Notes under the pieces: model-generated
Seen by the model: only the letters and a program-made list of their open reading frames with translations
Told to the model about the DNA's origin: nothing
The model's database searches: none
Program-made: the position numbers and the translations under genes
Sequence record: ON528736
Reading direction: 5' to 3' (one strand)
DNA: 64,000 nt
Origin: Shigella phage ESh26
In this document: in pieces, positions 6,372-61,335 of the stretch
Layout of the letters: every line of letters begins with the position of its first letter
Position numbering within the stretch: position 1 is the stretch's first letter

Positions 6372-6572
6372 ATGGTACAAAAATTAATGGCACTTGTTAA
6401 TGCCATAAAAGGTAATAAAAAACGTATAGCTTTTACTATTTCTGCTATGGTAGGAATTTTACTCTGGAATTTTGTTTTATCACCAATTGCTATTGCTCAT
6501 GGTGTTAATATTCCAGTAATTACTCTTGATACATTCGTAGATTTAGCATTTGCTTTGGTTGGGTTAATTTAA
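6372..6572 (+). CDS. small hydrophobic membrane protein
   Basis: 66-aa plus-strand ORF in the 56-61 gap, AGGAGG 7 nt before ATG, two hydrophobic segments. Confidence 0.5.
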   Translation: MVQKLMALVNAIKGNKKRIAFTISAMVGILLWNFVLSPIAIAHGVNIPVITLDTFVDLAFALVGLI

Positions 6573-7597
6573 ATCTTAGCGTATTTAGATAGCCGCATTT
6601 TAGCCATCAACCCTTGGGCAATATTATTTTTCATATATTCCATAATTTGTTTAGGGGTTGCACCTTCCTTTCTAATCATATCATTAACATCCTTTGATTT
6701 CCAGGGAGATTTATCCCAAAACATAACCCTTTCTCCTGCATCAACTAATTTAGTCATTCGTTTAATAGTGTCAGGGTGACGAGGTTCATTATCTAAAACC
6801 CACACACGTCTATCTTTAAATGGAACAATTTCTAGGTCTAATTGACCACCCGTAATAGCTATACCATTTTCAATAAAAAGTGAATCTATAGGTCCTTCTA
6901 GAACATATACATCACCATCTTTGACTCGTTCAACTCCATAGATTTTTGTTGCCTCAGGATAAGCTTTGATGGTGATATATTTTTGAGGAGCATCTTTCTT
7001 TAATGCACGTCCTTGAAAAGACTCGGCTTTTCCGTTAGCATTATAAATTGGAATAACAAGACGAGGCTCGGGCATTTCCTTTTTATATGTTCCTGGCGCT
7101 ATACTATTAACTAATTTAGGCCATTCGGTTGTAAACCAAAGATATTTCCATTTATCCTTTGGAATACAACGAGCTTTTACATATTTTATAATTGGATGGT
7201 CTTCCGCCAGTTTATCTAGTCTAATGCATGACGGAAGAGATTTAATTATTTTCTTCTCAGGTTGTTTAGAAAGTTCTTTAGGTTTTTCTACTGGACGACT
7301 TTTACCTTTTTCTTTTCTTATTTCAAAGATATACTCACGATATAAATCAGGTTCAAACTCCTTTAAATATATTCCGATTGGTGCATGATAGTTACAGTTA
7401 TAACAATGAATATTTCCTTCATTATTATCGCCATAATACCATCCACGGGCTTTATTTTGATCGGTTTTTGAATCTCCACAAACAGGACATCTAAACCGTA
7501 ATTTAAAAGTTGAACTATTATTTACTTGTGCGAATTTAGGTAAATGAGCTAATGCACGGTATGCAAACTCATTATCAATCCAAGGTATTGATGACAT
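6569..7597 (-). CDS. 61: DNA primase gp61
   Basis: 342 aa; zinc ribbon CPVCGDSK...HCYNCNYH; position before gene 41. Confidence 0.9.
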   Translation of the reverse strand: MSSIPWIDNEFAYRALAHLPKFAQVNNSSTFKLRFRCPVCGDSKTDQNKARGWYYGDNNEGNIHCYNCNYHAPIGIYLKEFEPDLYREYIFEIRKEKGKSRPVEKPKELSKQPEKKIIKSLPSCIRLDKLAEDHPIIKYVKARCIPKDKWKYLWFTTEWPKLVNSIAPGTYKKEMPEPRLVIPIYNANGKAESFQGRALKKDAPQKYITIKAYPEATKIYGVERVKDGDVYVLEGPIDSLFIENGIAITGGQLDLEIVPFKDRRVWVLDNEPRHPDTIKRMTKLVDAGERVMFWDKSPWKSKDVNDMIRKEGATPKQIMEYMKNNIAQGLMAKMRLSKYAKI

Positions 7598-7599
7598 TT

Positions 7600-7764
7600 T
7601 TACTCTTCTTTTTCTTTAGATTCCTCTTTTTTCTTTTTAGGAATCTGTTCAGGACCTTTATTTACTACAGCGCCTGACGTTGTTCCAGTGGAGATATTTT
7701 CAGGATTACCACCTGAATCTCCAGCTACCATATCTTCTTTGATAAATTCTTTATATGTTTTCAT
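7600..7764 (-). CDS. small lysine-rich protein with CTS-like N-terminus
   Basis: 54-aa ORF below table cutoff: MKTYKEFIKEDMVAGDSGGNPENISTGTTSGAVVNKGPEQIPKKKKEESKEKEE. Confidence 0.4.
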   Translation of the reverse strand: MKTYKEFIKEDMVAGDSGGNPENISTGTTSGAVVNKGPEQIPKKKKEESKEKEE

Positions 7765-7765
7765 A

Positions 7766-8392
7766 TTAACCTCTATTCATAAAAGCATTAAAAATTTGGT
7801 CATCAATAGAAACATTTACTTTAGACTGTTTTTCTGATAGTAATTCATATCCACATATTACAATTTTGTGATCAATATCAAAATGCACAGAAGCAATATG
7901 ATTAATGATGTTTTCAGTAAAGTCTAAATCAACATCAATATCTTTTTGACCACAGCCCAAAGGATAAATAATGCGAGTAATTCGATTATCTTTAACAAAG
8001 ATTCCACCGACATACTCTGTGCTGCGTTTAAAGTCTACACGCCGACGAAATGAAAAATATTCAGGCTCTTTATGAGCTCGGCTCATAGGACACAACGAGT
8101 AACTAGAATAAGAGATGTCAAATCCTACGCCTTCAATATGAGCCAAAGTATTACGATTAAACCAATTATAATCGTACGCCAAATCCATTAGATTATAATA
8201 TGTAAAAGGCACCGGATTAACATCATTAGTCACAAGCACGTAATTAGCAATTGCTATAATTTCATTGTTTTTAACGAATACAAACCGTGATTGATGGGAA
8301 TGACCTGGACCCGCGTTTTCACGATTAATGATATAACACTGGGCACCTTTATATTTGTATGTATCTTTGCACTTGTGCATTTGATAGAGCAT
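7766..8392 (-). CDS. hypothetical protein (61.2 position)
   Basis: 208-aa ORF, translationally coupled to sp. Confidence 0.5.
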   Translation of the reverse strand: MLYQMHKCKDTYKYKGAQCYIINRENAGPGHSHQSRFVFVKNNEIIAIANYVLVTNDVNPVPFTYYNLMDLAYDYNWFNRNTLAHIEGVGFDISYSSYSLCPMSRAHKEPEYFSFRRRVDFKRSTEYVGGIFVKDNRITRIIYPLGCGQKDIDVDLDFTENIINHIASVHFDIDHKIVICGYELLSEKQSKVNVSIDDQIFNAFMNRG

Positions 8393-8685
8393 TATTCACC
8401 TACCACTTCAGCGATGATATTTTTATTATTAAAGTTTTTATCGCAATACAGAACATAATTATACTGCATTACACCACCAGACTTAAGCTGTTTTTGCACT
8501 TCAGCTTTCATTTCAGGACGATCACGCTCAACAATATTCATAATATCTGCTTCAATTTGAGTTTCAACTTCAGTCTGATCTGCAGTCATAGACCATTCAC
8601 ACAAATCTTTGTCATAACCCGCCATAGCAGGCTGAGCAGCACAAGAAGATAAAGCAAAAATTATAGCAAAGATAAATTTTTTCAT
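8392..8685 (-). CDS. sp: spackle periplasmic protein
   Basis: 97 aa with signal peptide MKKFIFAIIFALSSCAAQPAMA; T4 Sp size and position. Confidence 0.8.
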   Translation of the reverse strand: MKKFIFAIIFALSSCAAQPAMAGYDKDLCEWSMTADQTEVETQIEADIMNIVERDRPEMKAEVQKQLKSGGVMQYNYVLYCDKNFNNKNIIAEVVGE

Positions 8686-8745: not shown

Positions 8746-9045
8746 CTATTTTAAAACTTCTGCATAATCACATGTTACAAACTGTTTCTCTAACTTGACG
8801 ATTTTACGAAAGTATCTTTTGCATTGGCGAATCTGTCGCTTCGTAGGGCGCACAGCAAACTTAATAAATTCCACTCGACCAAATGGAGGACTTTCTTCTG
8901 CTGGAATATCTAATACCAATTCCCACGTATCTGCGATAAGTGCTTTGAATTGAGTATTTTTCCTGACGTTATACGGTGTAGGTTTAAATAAAACAATATG
9001 CATATTATCCTCGGCAATCCACTTCGCATACTTTCTTGTCATCAA
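8746..9045 (-). CDS. hypothetical protein (61.4 position)
   Basis: 99-aa basic ORF between sp and dmd. Confidence 0.45.
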   Translation of the reverse strand: MMTRKYAKWIAEDNMHIVLFKPTPYNVRKNTQFKALIADTWELVLDIPAEESPPFGRVEFIKFAVRPTKRQIRQCKRYFRKIVKLEKQFVTCDYAEVLK

Positions 9046-9187
9046 TGAAAGCTTTAACTAGCGCTTTATTAACTTCAGCATATTGAGTAGTAGCCCATTG
9101 AACGTCATCTTTCATCATTGTGATTTCTTTAGTAAACATGCTTTCGTTCTTAAACCACCCCATAAAAACTACCTTTACCAATTCCAT
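9005..9187 (-). CDS. dmd: Dmd, inhibitor of RnlA/LsoA toxins
   Basis: 60-aa ORF directly downstream of gene 41, T4 Dmd size. Confidence 0.8.
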   Translation of the reverse strand: MELVKVVFMGWFKNESMFTKEITMMKDDVQWATTQYAEVNKALVKAFIDDKKVCEVDCRG

Positions 9188-9213
9188 AAAAATCTCCTCA
9201 TTTAACCAACAAG

Positions 9214-9246
9214 ACTACTATACCATAGTCTTGTCGGCTTGTAAAC
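9214..9246 (-). promoter_or_regulatory. early promoter upstream of dmd
   Basis: gtaaac 9241-9246, actata 9216-9221. Confidence 0.5.
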
Positions 9247-10673
9247 TAAAATTTTAATTCATTTGCCAAAGCATCTAACTGAGCTCGAGCGGATTCGTTT
9301 CTTTGATAGCGATTCTGTTCAGCCTGAATCTGCTGTGAACCTGCTACTTCGTTCACTTCGGTTGGAGTAGAATCTTGCTCAATTTCTACCCATTTCTGAT
9401 TTCCTTTTTGAACACCCATCAAAAACTTATTCCATTTATTCTTATCACCGTATCGTGATTTGATTTGCTTAATGAGTTGTTGTTCAGCAGCTGCTAGCTC
9501 CTCGGTTTCAATGACCGCAAGCATAAAATCAGCTGTTGCTGGAAGACCGGCAGATTCTGCAATATCGCTCATGTTAACATCAGAAGAGTCCCAAGCTTGC
9601 TTACCAACCTGTGCTGCAGTCCAAAGAACAGTTTCGGTTTCAACAGCCAGAGCACGCAATTCCTCTGCGATAGCTTTAACAGTCGTGTAACTATTTTCTG
9701 AATAAACTCTGATGCGGCAAGATTTACAAATACCCAGATAGTCAACAATAATGATTGTTGGAACAAAATTCTTCTTGAGCTTTAATTCATTTAAAAGCGA
9801 CCGAAATGTATTAGCGTCTGCTCCACCAGTAGGATATTGCTTAACGATTAAACGACCGAGAGTAGATTTCTCACGCCATTTTTCCATTTTTCCTTTATAC
9901 TCAGCGTAAGAAATATGCCCATCATCAATGTCATCAAGGGAAACATCAAGCATATTAGCATCAATACGTTTAGCACAAACTTCTTCTGCCATTTCCATGG
10001 AAATGTAAAGAACATTGTGTCCGAGCTGCAAATAATCTGCTGCCAATGAACACAATCCTAATGACTTGCCAACGTTAACACCGGCCATTAAAACGTTCAG
10101 TGTTCCAGTTTCAGCTCCGCCTTTAGTAATTTTATTTAGAATTTTGAGTTTAAATGGAACCTTACGAGCTTTATTCATATAAGATAGCCAACGTGCTTCG
10201 TAGTCATCCATCCAATCATGACCAACGTAACTATCAAATGAAATTGATAATGCTTGGCGCATGATGTCAGGAATAGCACCAACATCCGGCATTTTCTTAT
10301 TTCGTTTTTCTGGAGGAAGCTCAGCATTAGTTTGAATTTCAATTATTTTAGACGTAGCATTAAACATCGCCCTTTGCTGAACATATTTTTCTGTTTCTTT
10401 TACTAACCAGCTGTGGTCTTCTGGAGAATCGGCTAGTTTCGAAATAAGTGTTTTTACACCAGAATATTCTGTTTCAGTAAATGAACTATTTTCTAATGCA
10501 ACATTTAACGCATTAATAGATGGAACGCTATGGTATTCATTAACATGAGATTTAATTAATTTGAATGTATTTTTAGCTGGACCACTTTCAAAATATTCTG
10601 AATCCATATATGGCCAAACTTTTGAAAAATAAGCTTGATCAAATATGAGATGAGAAAGAATAATTTCTACCAC
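9246..10673 (-). CDS. 41: replicative DNA helicase gp41
   Basis: 475 aa; Walker A GVNVGKS; matches remembered T4 gp41 along whole length. Confidence 0.95.
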   Translation of the reverse strand: MVEIILSHLIFDQAYFSKVWPYMDSEYFESGPAKNTFKLIKSHVNEYHSVPSINALNVALENSSFTETEYSGVKTLISKLADSPEDHSWLVKETEKYVQQRAMFNATSKIIEIQTNAELPPEKRNKKMPDVGAIPDIMRQALSISFDSYVGHDWMDDYEARWLSYMNKARKVPFKLKILNKITKGGAETGTLNVLMAGVNVGKSLGLCSLAADYLQLGHNVLYISMEMAEEVCAKRIDANMLDVSLDDIDDGHISYAEYKGKMEKWREKSTLGRLIVKQYPTGGADANTFRSLLNELKLKKNFVPTIIIVDYLGICKSCRIRVYSENSYTTVKAIAEELRALAVETETVLWTAAQVGKQAWDSSDVNMSDIAESAGLPATADFMLAVIETEELAAAEQQLIKQIKSRYGDKNKWNKFLMGVQKGNQKWVEIEQDSTPTEVNEVAGSQQIQAEQNRYQRNESARAQLDALANELKF

Positions 10674-45985: not shown

Positions 45986-46027
45986 ATATACCCCTTTAGT
46001 TAGATAAACCTATTTATAACTTTTGCA

Positions 46028-51390: not shown

Positions 51391-51789
51391 TTATTTGAAT
51401 GATTTGACGTACTGAATAGAACCTTTACTATTCACGAAAGCGATTTTACCATTTTTGTTATACATGGTAGCAGTACGCTGATAGCCATAAGTTTGCTTAC
51501 CAGATTGATAACCAACTAATGCAAAATTATCTTCACCCATTTTATTCTGCTTCGCGCGGATACGTTCATGACCGTGCGCCATAAGAACCTTAGCATCGCC
51601 AGTTGAAATTGATCTACGAGTTTTTTCATCTTCAACTGTACTAACAAAGTCGTCAAATGAATCAAATTTAGCATGAGATTTATTATACAGTTTTCCATCT
51701 ACTGCATAATTATATCCCTGTACATCCATCTCAACTTCTGTACCATCATCCAATACAGCAGTGATTTTTTGACCTTTTTTAAATTTCAA
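51391..51789 (-). CDS. hypothetical protein
   Basis: 132-aa ORF. Confidence 0.5.
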   Translation of the reverse strand: MKFKKGQKITAVLDDGTEVEMDVQGYNYAVDGKLYNKSHAKFDSFDDFVSTVEDEKTRRSISTGDAKVLMAHGHERIRAKQNKMGEDNFALVGYQSGKQTYGYQRTATMYNKNGKIAFVNSKGSIQYVKSFK

Positions 51790-51877
51790 AAGATCAGTAA
51801 AAGATTCAGCAATAATTTGAGAATTAATAGCTGGCTGCTTCAGTGATAAATTCTTGATATGTTTTCATGTGTTTCCT

Positions 51878-52294
51878 TTAAATGTAAATATTTTTACCGT
51901 AGTATTTATACCAGTGTGGCTTCATTAAAATTTTTTCATCGAGTCGTTGTTGACTCAATTTAATAGCAGATTTGCATGGATTATAATCATTTTTCCATTC
52001 TGCTGGAATATCGCTGATGTCAGGAACTTCAGTATCTTTTATACTAAACCCACGTTTTAAGCATTCCGTTATAATGTCTGATTGACGCTTTCGCAAAAAT
52101 TCTAACTTATCGTAAAAGAACGTAACATGACCAGAACCTAAAATAAACTCAGAAGATATTTTAAAATCTTTAACCCGCTTACCATTTGCCACGTGTTTAC
52201 GAACTATACCAAAAACACGTGGCAATTCACGGTATTCTGCGATTAAATGTTGATCAGCAAGTTCAGATACTAAAGTCAAATTAATACGAGTCAT
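51878..52294 (-). CDS. denV: endonuclease V (pyrimidine dimer glycosylase) DenV
   Basis: Start at [17 protein letters not shown] (138 aa, GGAGG RBS); promoter 52321-52350. Confidence 0.9.
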
Positions 52295-56784: not shown

Positions 56785-57348
56785 TTATTTATCTAGTTTA
56801 GTTATTATAGCTTCTGCAGCAGCTTTTAGCTTAGATGCGGTGTTAATACGATTTTTAATTTCAGTATACGCATCGCCAAGAACATCAAGGCTATCAGAAT
56901 AAACACTTACACTATTGCGTTCGCTATTTGAAATAGAACCTTTAGTTTTGCGGTCAAAATCGGTGTACACGTCTTGAAGATCGCGGGCTGCCTTCTTTGC
57001 ATCATCCAATGCATCAAGAGCTTTATTCAAAGCATTAACGTATTTTTTAGTGTCGAACATATTCTTAGAAATTTTAACAGGTGCGCGTTCAGGAGTAGCT
57101 AACACAGATTTAGGAACCTGAGCGCCAGATGCCAATTTCTTAGAAATTTTGAAAAATGCTTTATTGAATTTATTTTCTTGACTCATTGTAAAAGAACTAT
57201 TATCGATGTTGTACATTTCAATAGCTTTAGCTTTCCACTTAAGAAAATCGCCGCGGTCTTTTGGGTCCAATTGGAAGAATACTTTAGTAAGATCTGCTTC
57301 AGATGGTAATTTTGCTGCTTCGGTTAAAAATTCGGCATAGGTTTTCAT
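56785..57348 (-). CDS. internal head protein (IPIII-like)
   Basis: 187 aa; N-terminal MKTYAEFLTEA capsid-targeting-sequence-like; terminator downstream. Confidence 0.65.
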   Translation of the reverse strand: MKTYAEFLTEAAKLPSEADLTKVFFQLDPKDRGDFLKWKAKAIEMYNIDNSSFTMSQENKFNKAFFKISKKLASGAQVPKSVLATPERAPVKISKNMFDTKKYVNALNKALDALDDAKKAARDLQDVYTDFDRKTKGSISNSERNSVSVYSDSLDVLGDAYTEIKNRINTASKLKAAAEAIITKLDK

Positions 57349-57473: not shown

Positions 57474-57947
57474 TTATTTGATTTGTTTAGCAGACCAAAT
57501 GCGGTCTTTAATAATTTTTTGGATGTCTTCAACATACTCAAGAGAGTGAACATGCGGATTATCTTTGAAACTATAAGCACGGGCTAACTTTTGGCCTTCG
57601 GTTTTGATTACTAAAAGCTCTTTAAGGATAGCTTCATATTTAGCGATAATTCCTTTAACGATATTTTTTTCTTGTGCAGCTTTAGGATCTGCTTTAGGAG
57701 CAGGTTTACCCGAAGCCTTTGCAAAAGCAGCGCCAGTAGCAACTAAACTTTTCCAGGCCATACTAACTGCATTTCCCGTAAATCCTTCTGCTTTCATGTC
57801 GCGAGCAAATTGGAATCGTGATTCGTCAGAAGCATCTTTATAGGAATATTTACCCGCTGCAATGGCTGCTTTTGCGACAGCTTGAATTTCGGTGCTAGAT
57901 GCTTCATTTAACACCGCTTCATTTAAAAATTGAGCATATGATTTCAT
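57474..57947 (-). CDS. internal head protein (IPII-like)
   Basis: 157 aa; MKSYAQFLNEA; late promoter TATAAATA at 57988-57995. Confidence 0.65.
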   Translation of the reverse strand: MKSYAQFLNEAVLNEASSTEIQAVAKAAIAAGKYSYKDASDESRFQFARDMKAEGFTGNAVSMAWKSLVATGAAFAKASGKPAPKADPKAAQEKNIVKGIIAKYEAILKELLVIKTEGQKLARAYSFKDNPHVHSLEYVEDIQKIIKDRIWSAKQIK

Positions 57948-60735: not shown

Positions 60736-60769
60736 TAATAGTATCACTACCCCATCTAAAAGTAAACTT
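60736..60769 (-). promoter_or_regulatory. early promoter
   Basis: gtaaac 60762-60767, atagta 60738-60743. Confidence 0.5.
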
Positions 60770-61001
60770 ATTTTTTACGAAAAATTGATTTATTTTCTGC
60801 TGCCCATTTTTCAATAACTGCAGCAGGACCAGTAACAACAATTTTATCACCGTAATCTTCTGCGGCGAGTTGACCGAAATTATCTAATGCATCACGAAGA
60901 ACTCCATAAGGCATTTCACCCATTTTATCTTTCTTGCCAGTGTAAATAAACTCAACTTTTACATCAGAAGATTCAGCGATAAACTCTTTGAAAGTTTTCA
61001 T
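60768..61001 (-). CDS. internal-protein-like small protein
   Basis: Start at MKTFKEFIAESSD (CTS-like); promoter 61034-61067. Confidence 0.55.
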   Translation of the reverse strand: MKTFKEFIAESSDVKVEFIYTGKKDKMGEMPYGVLRDALDNFGQLAAEDYGDKIVVTGPAAVIEKWAAENKSIFRKK

Positions 61002-61077: not shown

Positions 61078-61335
61078 TTATTTTAAATCTTCTAATCGTT
61101 TCTTCATCTTAGAACCATTTTTAGCAATTTCTCCTGCATCGGAGCATAACGCTAAAAGTGCTTTAACTTTAGTTTGGTCTCCTTTAAAAGATGAAGGATC
61201 GACTGCAGCAGCAAGTTCTTTAATACGAGAGAAAAGACGCTCAGCTTCAGCTAAAGCCATTCCAAGCTTTACTTCCATACCGTGAGAAGATTCAGTGATA
61301 GTAGTTTTTGTAGCAAACTCTTTGAAAGTTTTCAT
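61078..61335 (-). CDS. internal-protein-like small protein (ipI position)
   Basis: 85 aa; MKTFKEFATKTT; promoter 61364-61397; adjacent to 57B. Confidence 0.55.
   Translation of the reverse strand: MKTFKEFATKTTITESSHGMEVKLGMALAEAERLFSRIKELAAAVDPSSFKGDQTKVKALLALCSDAGEIAKNGSKMKKRLEDLK

What the first reader, a model, noticed from the sequence alone, without database searches (positions are those of the whole stretch)
7600..7764. Unlisted 54-aa gene next to primase starts with a capsid-targeting-sequence-like peptide
The minus-strand ORF MKTYKEFIKEDMVAG...KKKKEESKEKEE begins with a near match to the T4 internal-protein capsid targeting sequence (MKTYQEFIAE as I recall it), which directs packaging into the head and is removed by the prohead protease. 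A CTS-like leader on a small lysine-rich protein encoded far from the IP loci suggests an additional DNA-co-injected protein.
Basis: partly seen in the sequence, partly recalled or inferred. Interest (0 to 1): 0.45.

Follow-up and report, generated by a model that had tools for sequence, protein, structure and literature searches.

The report
T4 gene 61.1: capsid-targeting leader, capsid-like peptide
The 54-codon ORF is the known but uncharacterised T4 gene 61.1. It joins a genuine internal-protein-type capsid-targeting leader to a copy of the major capsid protein's maturation-cleavage site and N-terminal arm, so it is a credible but unproven extra substrate of the head-assembly machinery.

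Summary
Window 7600..7764 (-) encodes a 54-aa protein starting MKTYKEFIKE, 8/10 identical to the T4 IPII/IPIII capsid targeting sequence (CTS) MKTYQEFIAE.

- **Leader strength:** A matrix built only from internal-protein leaders scores it 27.9 bits (internal proteins 26.9-33.1). The next best of 822 Met starts in the window scores 3.6.
- **"Unlisted" is wrong:** It is the ortholog of annotated T4 gene 61.1, a hypothetical protein that is non-essential.
- **New finding 1:** Residues 2-38 are homologous to T4 gp23 residues 57-93. FIKE|DMVAGD lies in register with the gp23 maturation site FLTE65|A66EIGGD, followed by the gp23* N-arm.
- **New finding 2:** The ancestral family is about 155 aa, with a helical N-domain followed by this module, and always sits just upstream of primase. 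T-even phages carry a truncated form in which the N-domain is replaced by the CTS-like leader.

My best reading is that the protein is targeted to the prohead core and cut by the gp21 protease after Glu10, giving a 44-aa acidic peptide (confidence 0.4). Against this, the gene has early-type expression with no late promoter, it was not quantified in the T4 proteome time course I could read, no virion data on it were accessible, and the mature peptide is not basic. "DNA-co-injected" is unsupported.

Rival readings are an early capsid-protein mimic or anti-defence factor, and a replication-module accessory.

The parts
7600..7764 (-). ORF of 54 codons plus stop; ortholog of T4 gene 61.1
   Evidence: PHROG 1823 matched full length, E=7e-34. 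T4 61.1 differs at 2 residues. 501 phage records are at least 95% identical over residues 1-42.
7770..7773 (-). GAGG Shine-Dalgarno, 5 nt before the ATG. The 61.2 stop codon (7766-7768) lies between it and the start.
   Evidence: read directly; consistent with translation coupled to 61.2
7735..7764 (-). Codons 1-10, MKTYKEFIKE: CTS-type leader ending in the gp21-type motif I-x-E
   Evidence: Determinants at positions 4, 7, 8 and 10 from PMC9026906.
7732..7737 (-). Predicted gp21 cleavage junction Glu10|Asp11
   Evidence: In register with gp23 Glu65|Ala66 in BLASTP, HMM and phmmer alignments. Glu is at least 90% conserved across the family. Cleavage itself is inferred, not shown.
7648..7734 (-). 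Residues 11-39, DMVAGDSGGNPENISTGTTSGAVVNKGPE: module homologous to the N-arm of mature gp23* (T4 gp23 residues 66-94)
   Evidence: BLASTP 43% identity, E=1e-8. Family HMM hits only 61.1 orthologs and gp23 among 4160 six-frame segments. gp23 chains are the only PDB hits. The module is predicted disordered in the long-form model.
7603..7647 (-). Residues 40-54, QIPKKKKEESKEKEE: mixed-charge tail. Its purine-rich coding sequence also abuts the primase start 2 nt downstream.
   Evidence: Long-form relatives have strongly basic tails here, e.g. KKRKRIKVNLNKL.
6569..7597 (-). Primase gene 61 ortholog, the invariant downstream neighbour of the family
   Evidence: Same synteny in CC31, KVP40-like, Aeromonas, Acinetobacter and metagenomic relatives.
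7766..8392 (-). 61.2 ortholog = AdfA (anti-DarT factor A), the upstream neighbour
   Evidence: Pfam PF23813, E=1e-131. Part of the proposed anti-TA island (PMC9391042).

Best explanation
The ORF is the T-even short form of gene 61.1. I propose that it is a small substrate of the head-assembly machinery.

1. It is translated from the early 61.2-61.1-61 message.
2. Its N-terminal decapeptide acts like the internal-protein capsid targeting sequence and docks the protein on the prohead scaffolding core.
3. The gp23-like segment, a copy of the part of the major capsid protein that faces the core before maturation, may reinforce this docking.
4. When the prohead protease gp21 is activated, it cuts after Glu10 (I-K-E|D), the same position at which it cuts gp23 (L-T-E65|A66).
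5. This releases a 44-residue, 4.6 kDa, disordered, mildly acidic peptide.

**Shown:** the identity of the gene; the leader's membership of the IP-leader class; homology of residues 2-38 to gp23 57-93 with the cleavage sites in register; conservation of hydrophobic-x-Glu before the module across the family; the ancestral long form and its replacement by a CTS-like leader in T-even phages.

**Inferred:** targeting, cleavage, and any retention in the head.

The fate and role of the released peptide are open. It could be kept as an internal peptide, expelled with scaffold fragments, or modulate gp23-core contacts.
For: - **Leader strength:** It scores 27.9 bits on an IP-only matrix, inside the IP range, against 3.6 for the next best of 822 starts. 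The regex hits only IP genes and this ORF in 64 kb.
- **CTS determinants:** All four experimentally defined CTS determinants are present, and they are the conserved positions among diverged orthologs. Examples: MKTFKEFIKE, MKTYEEFLKE, MKTFKDFINE, MKSFKEVMNE, MKTYKEFVKLNE.
- **Homology to gp23:** BLASTP to T4 gp23 gives E=1e-8, gapless, with the cleavage sites aligned. A family HMM finds only gp23 besides 61.1 orthologs in a whole Krischvirus genome plus the T4 loci (5.5e-11 and 1e-9; next hit 3.9). The only PDB hits are gp23 chains.
- **Conserved cleavage-type motif:** A hydrophobic-x-E motif immediately precedes MVAGD in all 25 diverse representatives that carry the module. Glu is at least 90% conserved.
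- **Role of the matching gp23 segment:** gp23 residues 66-105 lie inside the unexpanded shell and are thought to contact the scaffolding core. Head-length mutations A66D, A94V and G97S map there (PMC9546572).
- **Leaders in other short forms:** Short forms in other genera also carry CTS-like leaders ending in hydrophobic-x-E:
  - IME13: MKTFLEC...VDE|D
  - an Aeromonas phage: MKSFMEV...IDE|D
  - Krischvirus: MIGFKQFVEENKLKE|D
- **Timing and essentiality:** The gene is non-essential like the ip genes. ipII and ipIII RNAs are also classed early in the same data set, so early RNA does not by itself exclude packaging.
Against: - There is no TATAAATA late promoter anywhere near the gene. The nearest upstream one on this strand is at 46011, whereas two IP-type starts (51868, 57947) have one 35-41 nt upstream.
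- The gene sits in the replication module in every lineage examined, not in the ip loci.
- The protein was not quantified in the T4 proteome time course, although its neighbour gp61.2 was.
- The only T4 head mass-spectrometry material I could read shows coverage figures for IPII, IPIII and Alt only, not a protein list. It therefore neither shows nor excludes gp61.1.
- The predicted mature peptide is acidic (pI 5.0), unlike the basic IPs. It is small enough that it might leave through the 14-17 Å capsomer openings described for scaffold fragments.
- P1' would be Asp, whereas the gp21 sites I could verify have Ala or Ser there.
- Some short forms have leaders that are not CTS-like, although they still end in L-x-E. 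Example: Klebsiella phages, MTLLDQYKQSLSE|MVAGD.
Confidence: 0.4

Rival explanations
1. Early cytoplasmic mimic of the major capsid protein. The peptide copies the gp23 segment around residues 57-98 and acts as a decoy or competitor for a host or phage factor that recognises that part of gp23. Candidates are a capsid-sensing defence system, or EF-Tu, which binds the first quarter of gp23. This would make 61.1 another member of the dmd-tifA-adfA counter-defence cluster. In this reading the CTS-like leader is incidental or adds mimicry of the uncleaved gp23 site.
For: - RNA is classed early and there is no late promoter.
- The gene is non-essential.
- It lies directly downstream of adfA and near tifA and dmd. 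Srikant et al. call this region an anti-TA island and name its other genes as candidates.
- Homology to gp23 is robust.
- The Gol/EF-Tu interaction maps to the N-terminal quarter of gp23 (PMC3014915).
Against: - The module is conserved from coliphages to Vibrio, Aeromonas and Acinetobacter phages. This is much broader than is typical for host-specific counter-defence genes.
- There are no PADLOC or Pfam hits.
- It does not explain why the leader keeps exactly the CTS determinants.
- The similarity ends about where I recall the Gol peptide beginning (from memory, not checked).
Confidence: 0.25
2. Replication-module accessory, with the short form a reduced remnant. The conserved helical N-domain of the long form works with the helicase and primase. 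The T-even 54-aa ORF survives mainly because the conserved disordered motif still binds its partner, or because its translation is coupled to that of primase gene 61. The resemblance to the CTS has no targeting consequence.
For: - The position 41 - (x) - 61.1 - 61 is invariant in all lineages, including metagenomic relatives.
- 1862 representative proteins share mostly the N-domain, with variable C-termini.
- The 61.1 stop lies 2 nt before the primase ATG.
- The N-domain occurs as a single copy per genome.
Against: - T-even phages have lost exactly the N-domain but keep the C-module under strong conservation. 501 records are at least 95% identical, and the motif is kept at 50-80% identity across genera.
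- Coupling alone would not conserve the amino-acid sequence.
- As I recall, the reconstituted T4 replisome needs no such factor.
- This reading does not explain the homology to gp23 or the conserved hydrophobic-x-E.
Confidence: 0.2
3. The leader similarity is a by-product of recombination between the shared 5' ends of ip genes and has no function.
For: - The first 7 shared codons are identical at the DNA level to an ip leader in the same genome. The window pair is 27/30 nt identical, and T4 61.1 and T4 ipI share their first 22 nt.
- IP loci are known recombination hot spots.
Against: - Codon identity is only weakly beyond codon-usage expectation (about 0.016 before correcting for roughly 9 comparisons).
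- The upstream DNA is unrelated.
- The leader is maintained with its determinants in diverged genera, which indicates selection.
Confidence: 0.1

Closest known systems
T-even internal proteins IPI, IPII, IPIII and the other Ip genes (CTS-bearing, gp21-processed, injected with the DNA; Ip1-3 inhibit GmrSD type IV restriction enzymes)
   Same: - The N-terminal decapeptide belongs to the same sequence class, with the same determinants and the I/L-x-E cleavage motif.
- The gene is small and non-essential.
- The RNA is classed early, like ipII and ipIII, in the T4 omics data.
   Different: - It is not in the ip loci and has no late promoter.
- The payload is a 44-aa disordered, acidic copy of a capsid-protein segment, not a folded basic protein.
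- The payload is conserved across Straboviridae, whereas Ip payloads are hypervariable.
- Presence in heads has not been demonstrated.
T4 major capsid protein gp23: propeptide junction and N-arm (residues about 57-98)
   Same: Significant sequence homology, with the maturation cleavage site in register. Both segments are flexible or disordered.
   Different: 61.1 has none of the HK97-fold body and cannot be a shell subunit. Database names such as "major capsid domain-containing protein" over-interpret this 37-residue similarity.
T4 prohead core proteins gp67 and gp68 and the acid-soluble internal peptides II and VII
   Same: These are small, partly acidic core components cut by gp21 into peptides, some of which stay in the head. 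That is the kind of product predicted here.
   Different: They are essential late genes in the head cluster. There is no sequence similarity, and 61.1 is early and dispensable.
Long N-terminal propeptides (over 100 residues) of head proteins in giant phages such as SPN3US
   Same: The long-form 61.1 (about 105-aa N-domain, then hydrophobic-x-E, then payload) has the same layout as a head protein with a long propeptide (PMC5694885).
   Different: No proteomic evidence exists for the long form. Its N-domain is single-copy and is encoded in the replication module.

Membership tests
T-even internal proteins (Ip, CTS-directed head proteins) | N-terminal capsid targeting sequence of the MK[TS][YF]x[EQ]F[ILA]xE type, with aromatic residues at positions 4 and 7 | tested here: met
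   27.9 bits on an IP-only PSSM (IP range 26.9-33.1; next best 3.6). Regex specificity. Determinants.
T-even internal proteins (Ip, CTS-directed head proteins) | gp21 cleavage motif (L/I)-x-E at the end of the leader, actually cleaved in proheads | tested here: inconclusive
   The motif I-K-E10 is present and in register with the gp23 site. Cleavage cannot be tested here, and P1' is Asp rather than Ala or Ser.
T-even internal proteins (Ip, CTS-directed head proteins) | Physically present in proheads and virions and ejected with the DNA | not testable with these tools
   Not quantified in the T4 infected-cell proteome. The T4 head mass-spectrometry supplement I could read shows coverage figures for IPII, IPIII and Alt only, not a protein list.
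T-even internal proteins (Ip, CTS-directed head proteins) | Encoded in the hyperplastic ip loci, with a late promoter just upstream | tested here: not met
   The gene is 44-54 kb from the IP-type genes in the window. No TATAAATA lies upstream before 46011, whereas IP-type starts at 51868 and 57947 have one 35-41 nt upstream.
T-even internal proteins (Ip, CTS-directed head proteins) | Basic mature protein | tested here: not met
   The predicted mature peptide has 7 K against 9 D+E, pI 5.0. Long-form relatives do have basic tails.
gp61.1 family (PHROG 1823 short form; PHROG 2086 long form) | Full-length profile match and position immediately upstream of primase gene 61 | tested here: met
   phrog_1823 E=7e-34 over residues 1-54. 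phrog_2086 positions 109-154 matched. T4 annotation. Synteny.
Major capsid protein gp23 family (Pfam Gp23) | HK97-fold capsid body | tested here: not met
   Only residues 2-38 align, to gp23 57-93. No Pfam hit. The protein is 54 aa.
Anti-toxin / counter-defence genes of the dmd-tifA-adfA island | Location in the island, early expression, dispensability | tested here: met
   Adjacent to adfA. Early RNA. Non-essential. Island proposed in PMC9391042.
Anti-toxin / counter-defence genes of the dmd-tifA-adfA island | Demonstrated inhibition of a defence system, or homology to a known inhibitor | not testable with these tools
   No homology to Dmd, TifA or AdfA was seen. No PADLOC or Pfam hits.

The most novel reading that the evidence does not exclude
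Gene 61.1 marks an ancient partial duplication of the major capsid protein's core-facing, protease-cut segment, which serves as a portable ticket into the prohead. In most Straboviridae it would carry a roughly 105-residue helical domain, encoded in the replication module, into or onto the assembling head, where gp21 would release it. In T-even phages that domain was swapped for the 10-residue internal-protein CTS, leaving a processed 44-residue peptide that is a previously unrecognised head component or a modulator of the gp23-scaffold contact that sets head length.
Probability: 0.25. Interest if true: 0.65.

Novelty: new variant of a known kind. Interest (0 to 1): 0.5.

Why it matters
- **A possible new head substrate in T4.** T4 head assembly is among the best-studied assembly pathways, and the CTS is used as an engineering tool to load foreign proteins into capsids. 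A natural CTS-type leader on a conserved gene outside the ip loci would add a head-machinery substrate that gels and standard tryptic searches would have missed. I did not find this noted in any literature I could search.
- **A handle on gp23-core contacts.** The payload copies the gp23 segment that faces the scaffolding core and carries head-length mutations. The peptide is therefore a natural reagent for asking what that segment binds.
- **Correcting annotation.** The result corrects the recurrent "major capsid protein" annotations of this small gene.
- **Defining the family.** It defines a large uncharacterised family (1862 representatives at 50% identity) whose N-domain has no known function.
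- **If the rival reading is right.** The gene would instead be a capsid-protein mimic in an anti-defence island, which would also be of interest.

Tried and rejected
- **Pfam, PHROG, PADLOC.** Scans of short and long forms returned only unknown-function PHROGs.
- **Leader covariation test.** I asked whether the 61.1 leader covaries with other CTS-type leaders in a distant genome.
  - In the complete Krischvirus kaaroe genome, only 61.1 and the UvsW.1 homolog start with M..[FY]..F[ILVM].E.
  - UvsW.1 is a conserved helicase partner, not a known head protein, so the test is inconclusive.
- **Own-genome co-evolution of 61.1 with gp23.** My hand count from the sequences gave 14-16 identities of 31 in all four T4/kaaroe combinations. 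This gives no sign of recent gene conversion.
- **DNA-level descent of the leader from an ip gene.** The evidence is suggestive only.
- **Literature.** Searches for gp61.1, "gene 61.1", the CTS sequence and "CTS-like" found no functional statement about 61.1. Miller et al. 2003 (PMC150520) is not held, so an older remark cannot be excluded.
- **Chance ORF rejected.** The gene has a strong RBS, is conserved in more than a thousand phage records, and has a specific profile.
- **Capsid protein fragment or pseudogene rejected.** The module is maintained as part of a distinct, syntenic gene family.

Full report
**1. What is there**

Window 7600..7764 (minus strand) is an ATG-initiated ORF of 54 codons: MKTYKEFIKEDMVAGDSGGNPENISTGTTSGAVVNKGPEQIPKKKKEESKEKEE.
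- A GAGG Shine-Dalgarno lies 5 nt upstream of the ATG.
- The start is 1 nt after the stop of the upstream gene. The ORF's own stop is 2 nt before the ATG of the downstream gene.
- The window comes from a Tequatrovirus; 538 phage records match this kilobase, most at 95-99%.
- In T4 (NC_000866) the same position holds annotated gene 61.1 (NP_049649.1, "gp61.1 hypothetical protein"), between 61.2 and primase gene 61. The T4 protein differs at two residues and starts MKTFKEFIKE.
- The downstream neighbour is the primase (PHROG 47). The upstream neighbour is AdfA, the anti-DarT factor (Pfam PF23813, E=1e-131).

So the ORF is real and is next to primase, but it is not "unlisted".

**2. The leader**

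T4 ipII and ipIII both begin MKTYQEFIAE, and ipI begins MKTFKEFTSTTTPVSTITE. The decapeptide is quoted as the CTS in PMC8442874. The window protein matches IPII/IPIII at 8 of 10 positions.
- **Specificity by regex.** In all six frames of the 64 kb window, M[KR][TS][YF].[ED][FVLIM] occurs five times. Every hit is at a minus-strand ORF start: four in the internal-protein loci (51868, 57348, 61335, 61001) and this ORF. A sixth IP-type gene starts MKSYAQFLNE at 57947.
- **Specificity by matrix.** A position matrix trained only on seven IP leaders scores 61.1 at 27.9 bits, inside the range of the IP genes themselves (26.9-33.1). The next best of 822 candidate Met starts scores 3.6.
- **Functional determinants.** The review by Kuhn and Thomas summarises the Mullaney-Black mutagenesis. 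Targeting depends mainly on residues 4 and 7, and processing on residues 8 and 10 (PMC9026906). In 61.1 all four are kept.
- **Conservation pattern.** Among diverged orthologs these four positions are the ones that persist, while positions 5, 6 and 9 vary. Examples: MKTFKDFINE, MKTYEEFLKE, MKTYKEFVNE, MKSFKEVMNE, MKTYKEFVKLNE.
- **DNA level.** The shared codons are identical to those of an ip leader in the same genome (27/30 nt). This is only weakly beyond codon-usage expectation, and the upstream DNA is unrelated.

**3. The payload is a copy of part of the major capsid protein**

Several database sources call relatives "major capsid domain-containing protein", so I tested this directly.
- **BLASTP against T4 gp23.** Residues 2-38 align without gaps to gp23 57-93 (43% identity, E=1e-8).
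- **Cleavage sites in register.** FIKE|DMVAGD lies opposite FLTE65|A66EIGGD. Glu65|Ala66 is the maturation cut that removes the 65-residue propeptide (for the cut).
- **Family HMM.** An HMM of the 61.1 C-terminal module was searched against 4160 stop-to-stop segments (a whole Krischvirus genome, this window and the T4 loci). It finds only 61.1 orthologs and gp23 (5.5e-11 and 1e-9); the next hit has E=3.9.
- **PDB.** Against all PDB sequences, the only hits are T4 gp23 chains.
- **What the matching gp23 segment does.** According to the T4 capsid structures, gp23 residues 66-105 are disordered and inside the shell before expansion and probably contact the scaffolding core. They become the external N-arm and N-fist afterwards. 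The head-length mutations A66D, A94V and G97S map there (PMC9546572).

**4. The family**

- **Long form.** In Karamvirus CC31, KVP40-like vibriophages, Aeromonas Ceceduovirus and Acinetobacter phage Acj61, gene 61.1 encodes 150-160 aa and again lies just upstream of primase. The T4-like sequence is its C-terminal third.
- **Breadth.** About 100 long forms were retrieved. A profile search of 1.84 billion representatives gives 1862 hits at E<=1e-3, most sharing only the N-terminal domain. That N-domain is found once per genome, and reaches a Pelagibacter myophage.
- **Conserved motif.** The alignment shows hydrophobic-x-Glu, then [DESA] or nothing, then M-V-A-G-D-[SA]-G-G...I-A-x-G-x-[TS]-[ST]-G-A-[VI]...G-P, then a lysine-rich tail. 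All 25 diverse representatives that carry the module have hydrophobic-x-E just before it.
- **Short forms.** They occur in Tequatrovirus and several other genera.
  - Many start with CTS-like leaders ending in hydrophobic-x-E: IME13 MKTFLEC...VDE|D; an Aeromonas phage MKSFMEV...IDE|D; Krischvirus MIGFKQFVEENKLKE|D.
  - Klebsiella phages have MTLLDQYKQSLSE|MVAGD, which is not CTS-like but keeps L-x-E.

The T-even gene is therefore a truncated family member in which about 105 residues were replaced by a ten-residue leader of the type T-even phages use to load their heads.

**5. Expression and dispensability**

- **Late promoters.** There are eight TATAAATA sites in the window. None lies upstream of 61.1 on its strand before 46011, whereas IP-type starts at 51868 and 57947 have one 35-41 nt upstream.
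- **T4 omics data.** In the T4 transcriptome/proteome time course, 61.1 RNA is classed early and the protein class is NA. gp61.2 is quantified. ipII and ipIII are classed "early RNA, late protein" (PMC9697503 supplements).
- **Why the negative is weak.** If the protein were cut after Glu10, the expected fully tryptic peptide EDMVAGD...K would not exist, so standard searches would miss it. This is my inference.
- **Essentiality.** Insertion mapping classes T4 61.1 as non-essential, with 13 of 13 sites hit (bioRxiv 10.1101/2025.11.20.689424, supplement 7).
- **Genomic neighbourhood.** Srikant et al. describe dmd-tifA-adfA as an anti-TA island and name its other genes as candidates (PMC9391042).

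**6. Interpretation**

The most economical reading of leader plus payload is a protein built to engage the prohead core and its protease. It has a targeting leader, a copy of the core-facing gp23 segment, and a cleavage site at the homologous position. I give this a confidence of 0.4.
- The steps "binds the core", "is cut by gp21" and "stays in the head" are all inferred.
The predicted product is a 4.6 kDa peptide with pI 5.0, and it could well leave with the scaffold fragments.
- Rivals: an early cytoplasmic gp23 mimic or counter-defence factor (0.25); a replication-module accessory of which the T-even form is a remnant (0.2); a functionless recombination by-product (0.1).

**7. Novelty**

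The gene is long annotated, so the ORF itself is not new. In the searchable literature I found no statement linking 61.1 to the CTS or to gp23. If the targeting reading is right, this is a new variant of the internal-protein theme. Either way, the homology to the gp23 cleavage site and N-arm, and the long/short family structure, are concrete results that can be tested with one mass-spectrometry experiment and one reporter fusion.

Noticed in passing
window 51824-51868 (-), with TATAAATA at 51903-51910: A 14-codon ORF, MKTYQEFITEAASY*, with a perfect CTS and its own late promoter. It looks like the decapitated remnant of an internal-protein gene, lying just upstream of a 132-aa ORF (51391-51789).
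   Followed up: partly
window 56785-57348, 57474-57947, 60768-61001, 61078-61335 (all -): Four intact IP-type genes with leader variants MKTYAEFLTE, MKSYAQFLNE, MKTFKEFIAE and MKTFKEFATKTTITE. Their payloads look unlike T4 IPI-III by eye (not compared formally). This phage seems to carry a different internal-protein repertoire from T4.
   Followed up: partly
L014 2605-2841 (-) (Escherichia phage kaaroe) and L004 about 9211-9441 (T4 uvsW 3' part): The UvsW.1 homolog starts MISFKRFLVEAAIDG in the Krischvirus, and the T4 sequence reads MLLEFKQFLYEASIDE. Both resemble a CTS followed by L-x-E|A. In the Krischvirus it is the only ORF besides 61.1 with this start pattern.
   Followed up: partly
P0125 (251 aa, locus L019 6001-6756) and P0138 (247 aa): Metagenomic long-form 61.1 proteins continue past the lysine tail into a second CTS-like motif (MVDFKQFVESLE|A, VSNFKQFVEGLE|A) and a further ~100-residue C-terminal region, as if a 61.1 gene were fused to a CTS-bearing gene.
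   Followed up: no
alignment A2, positions 92-95 of the CC31-type long form: A second, invariant Glu is preceded by [IL]-[TSN] (for example NITE|S, GLTE|S), about 14 residues before the main hydrophobic-x-E. It could be a second protease-type site or a structural residue.
   Followed up: no
window 7766-8392 (-): The upstream neighbour is a full-length AdfA (anti-DarT factor A, Pfam PF23813). The cluster dmd (9005-9187), 61.4/tifA region, sp (8392-8685) and adfA is intact in this phage.
   Followed up: partly
window 6372-6572 (+): A 66-aa hydrophobic ORF lies on the opposite strand, overlapping the 3' end of the primase gene. The equivalent ORF is annotated as a hypothetical protein in Shigella phage ESh16, and a same-sized ORF at the equivalent position in Klebsiella phage SAKp28 carries the label "DNA packaging ATPase", which looks wrong for a ~66-aa ORF.
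   Followed up: no
phage records listed: Several GenBank and RefSeq records annotate the 61.1 gene, short or long, as "major capsid protein". This error propagated from the 37-residue similarity to gp23.
   Followed up: yes
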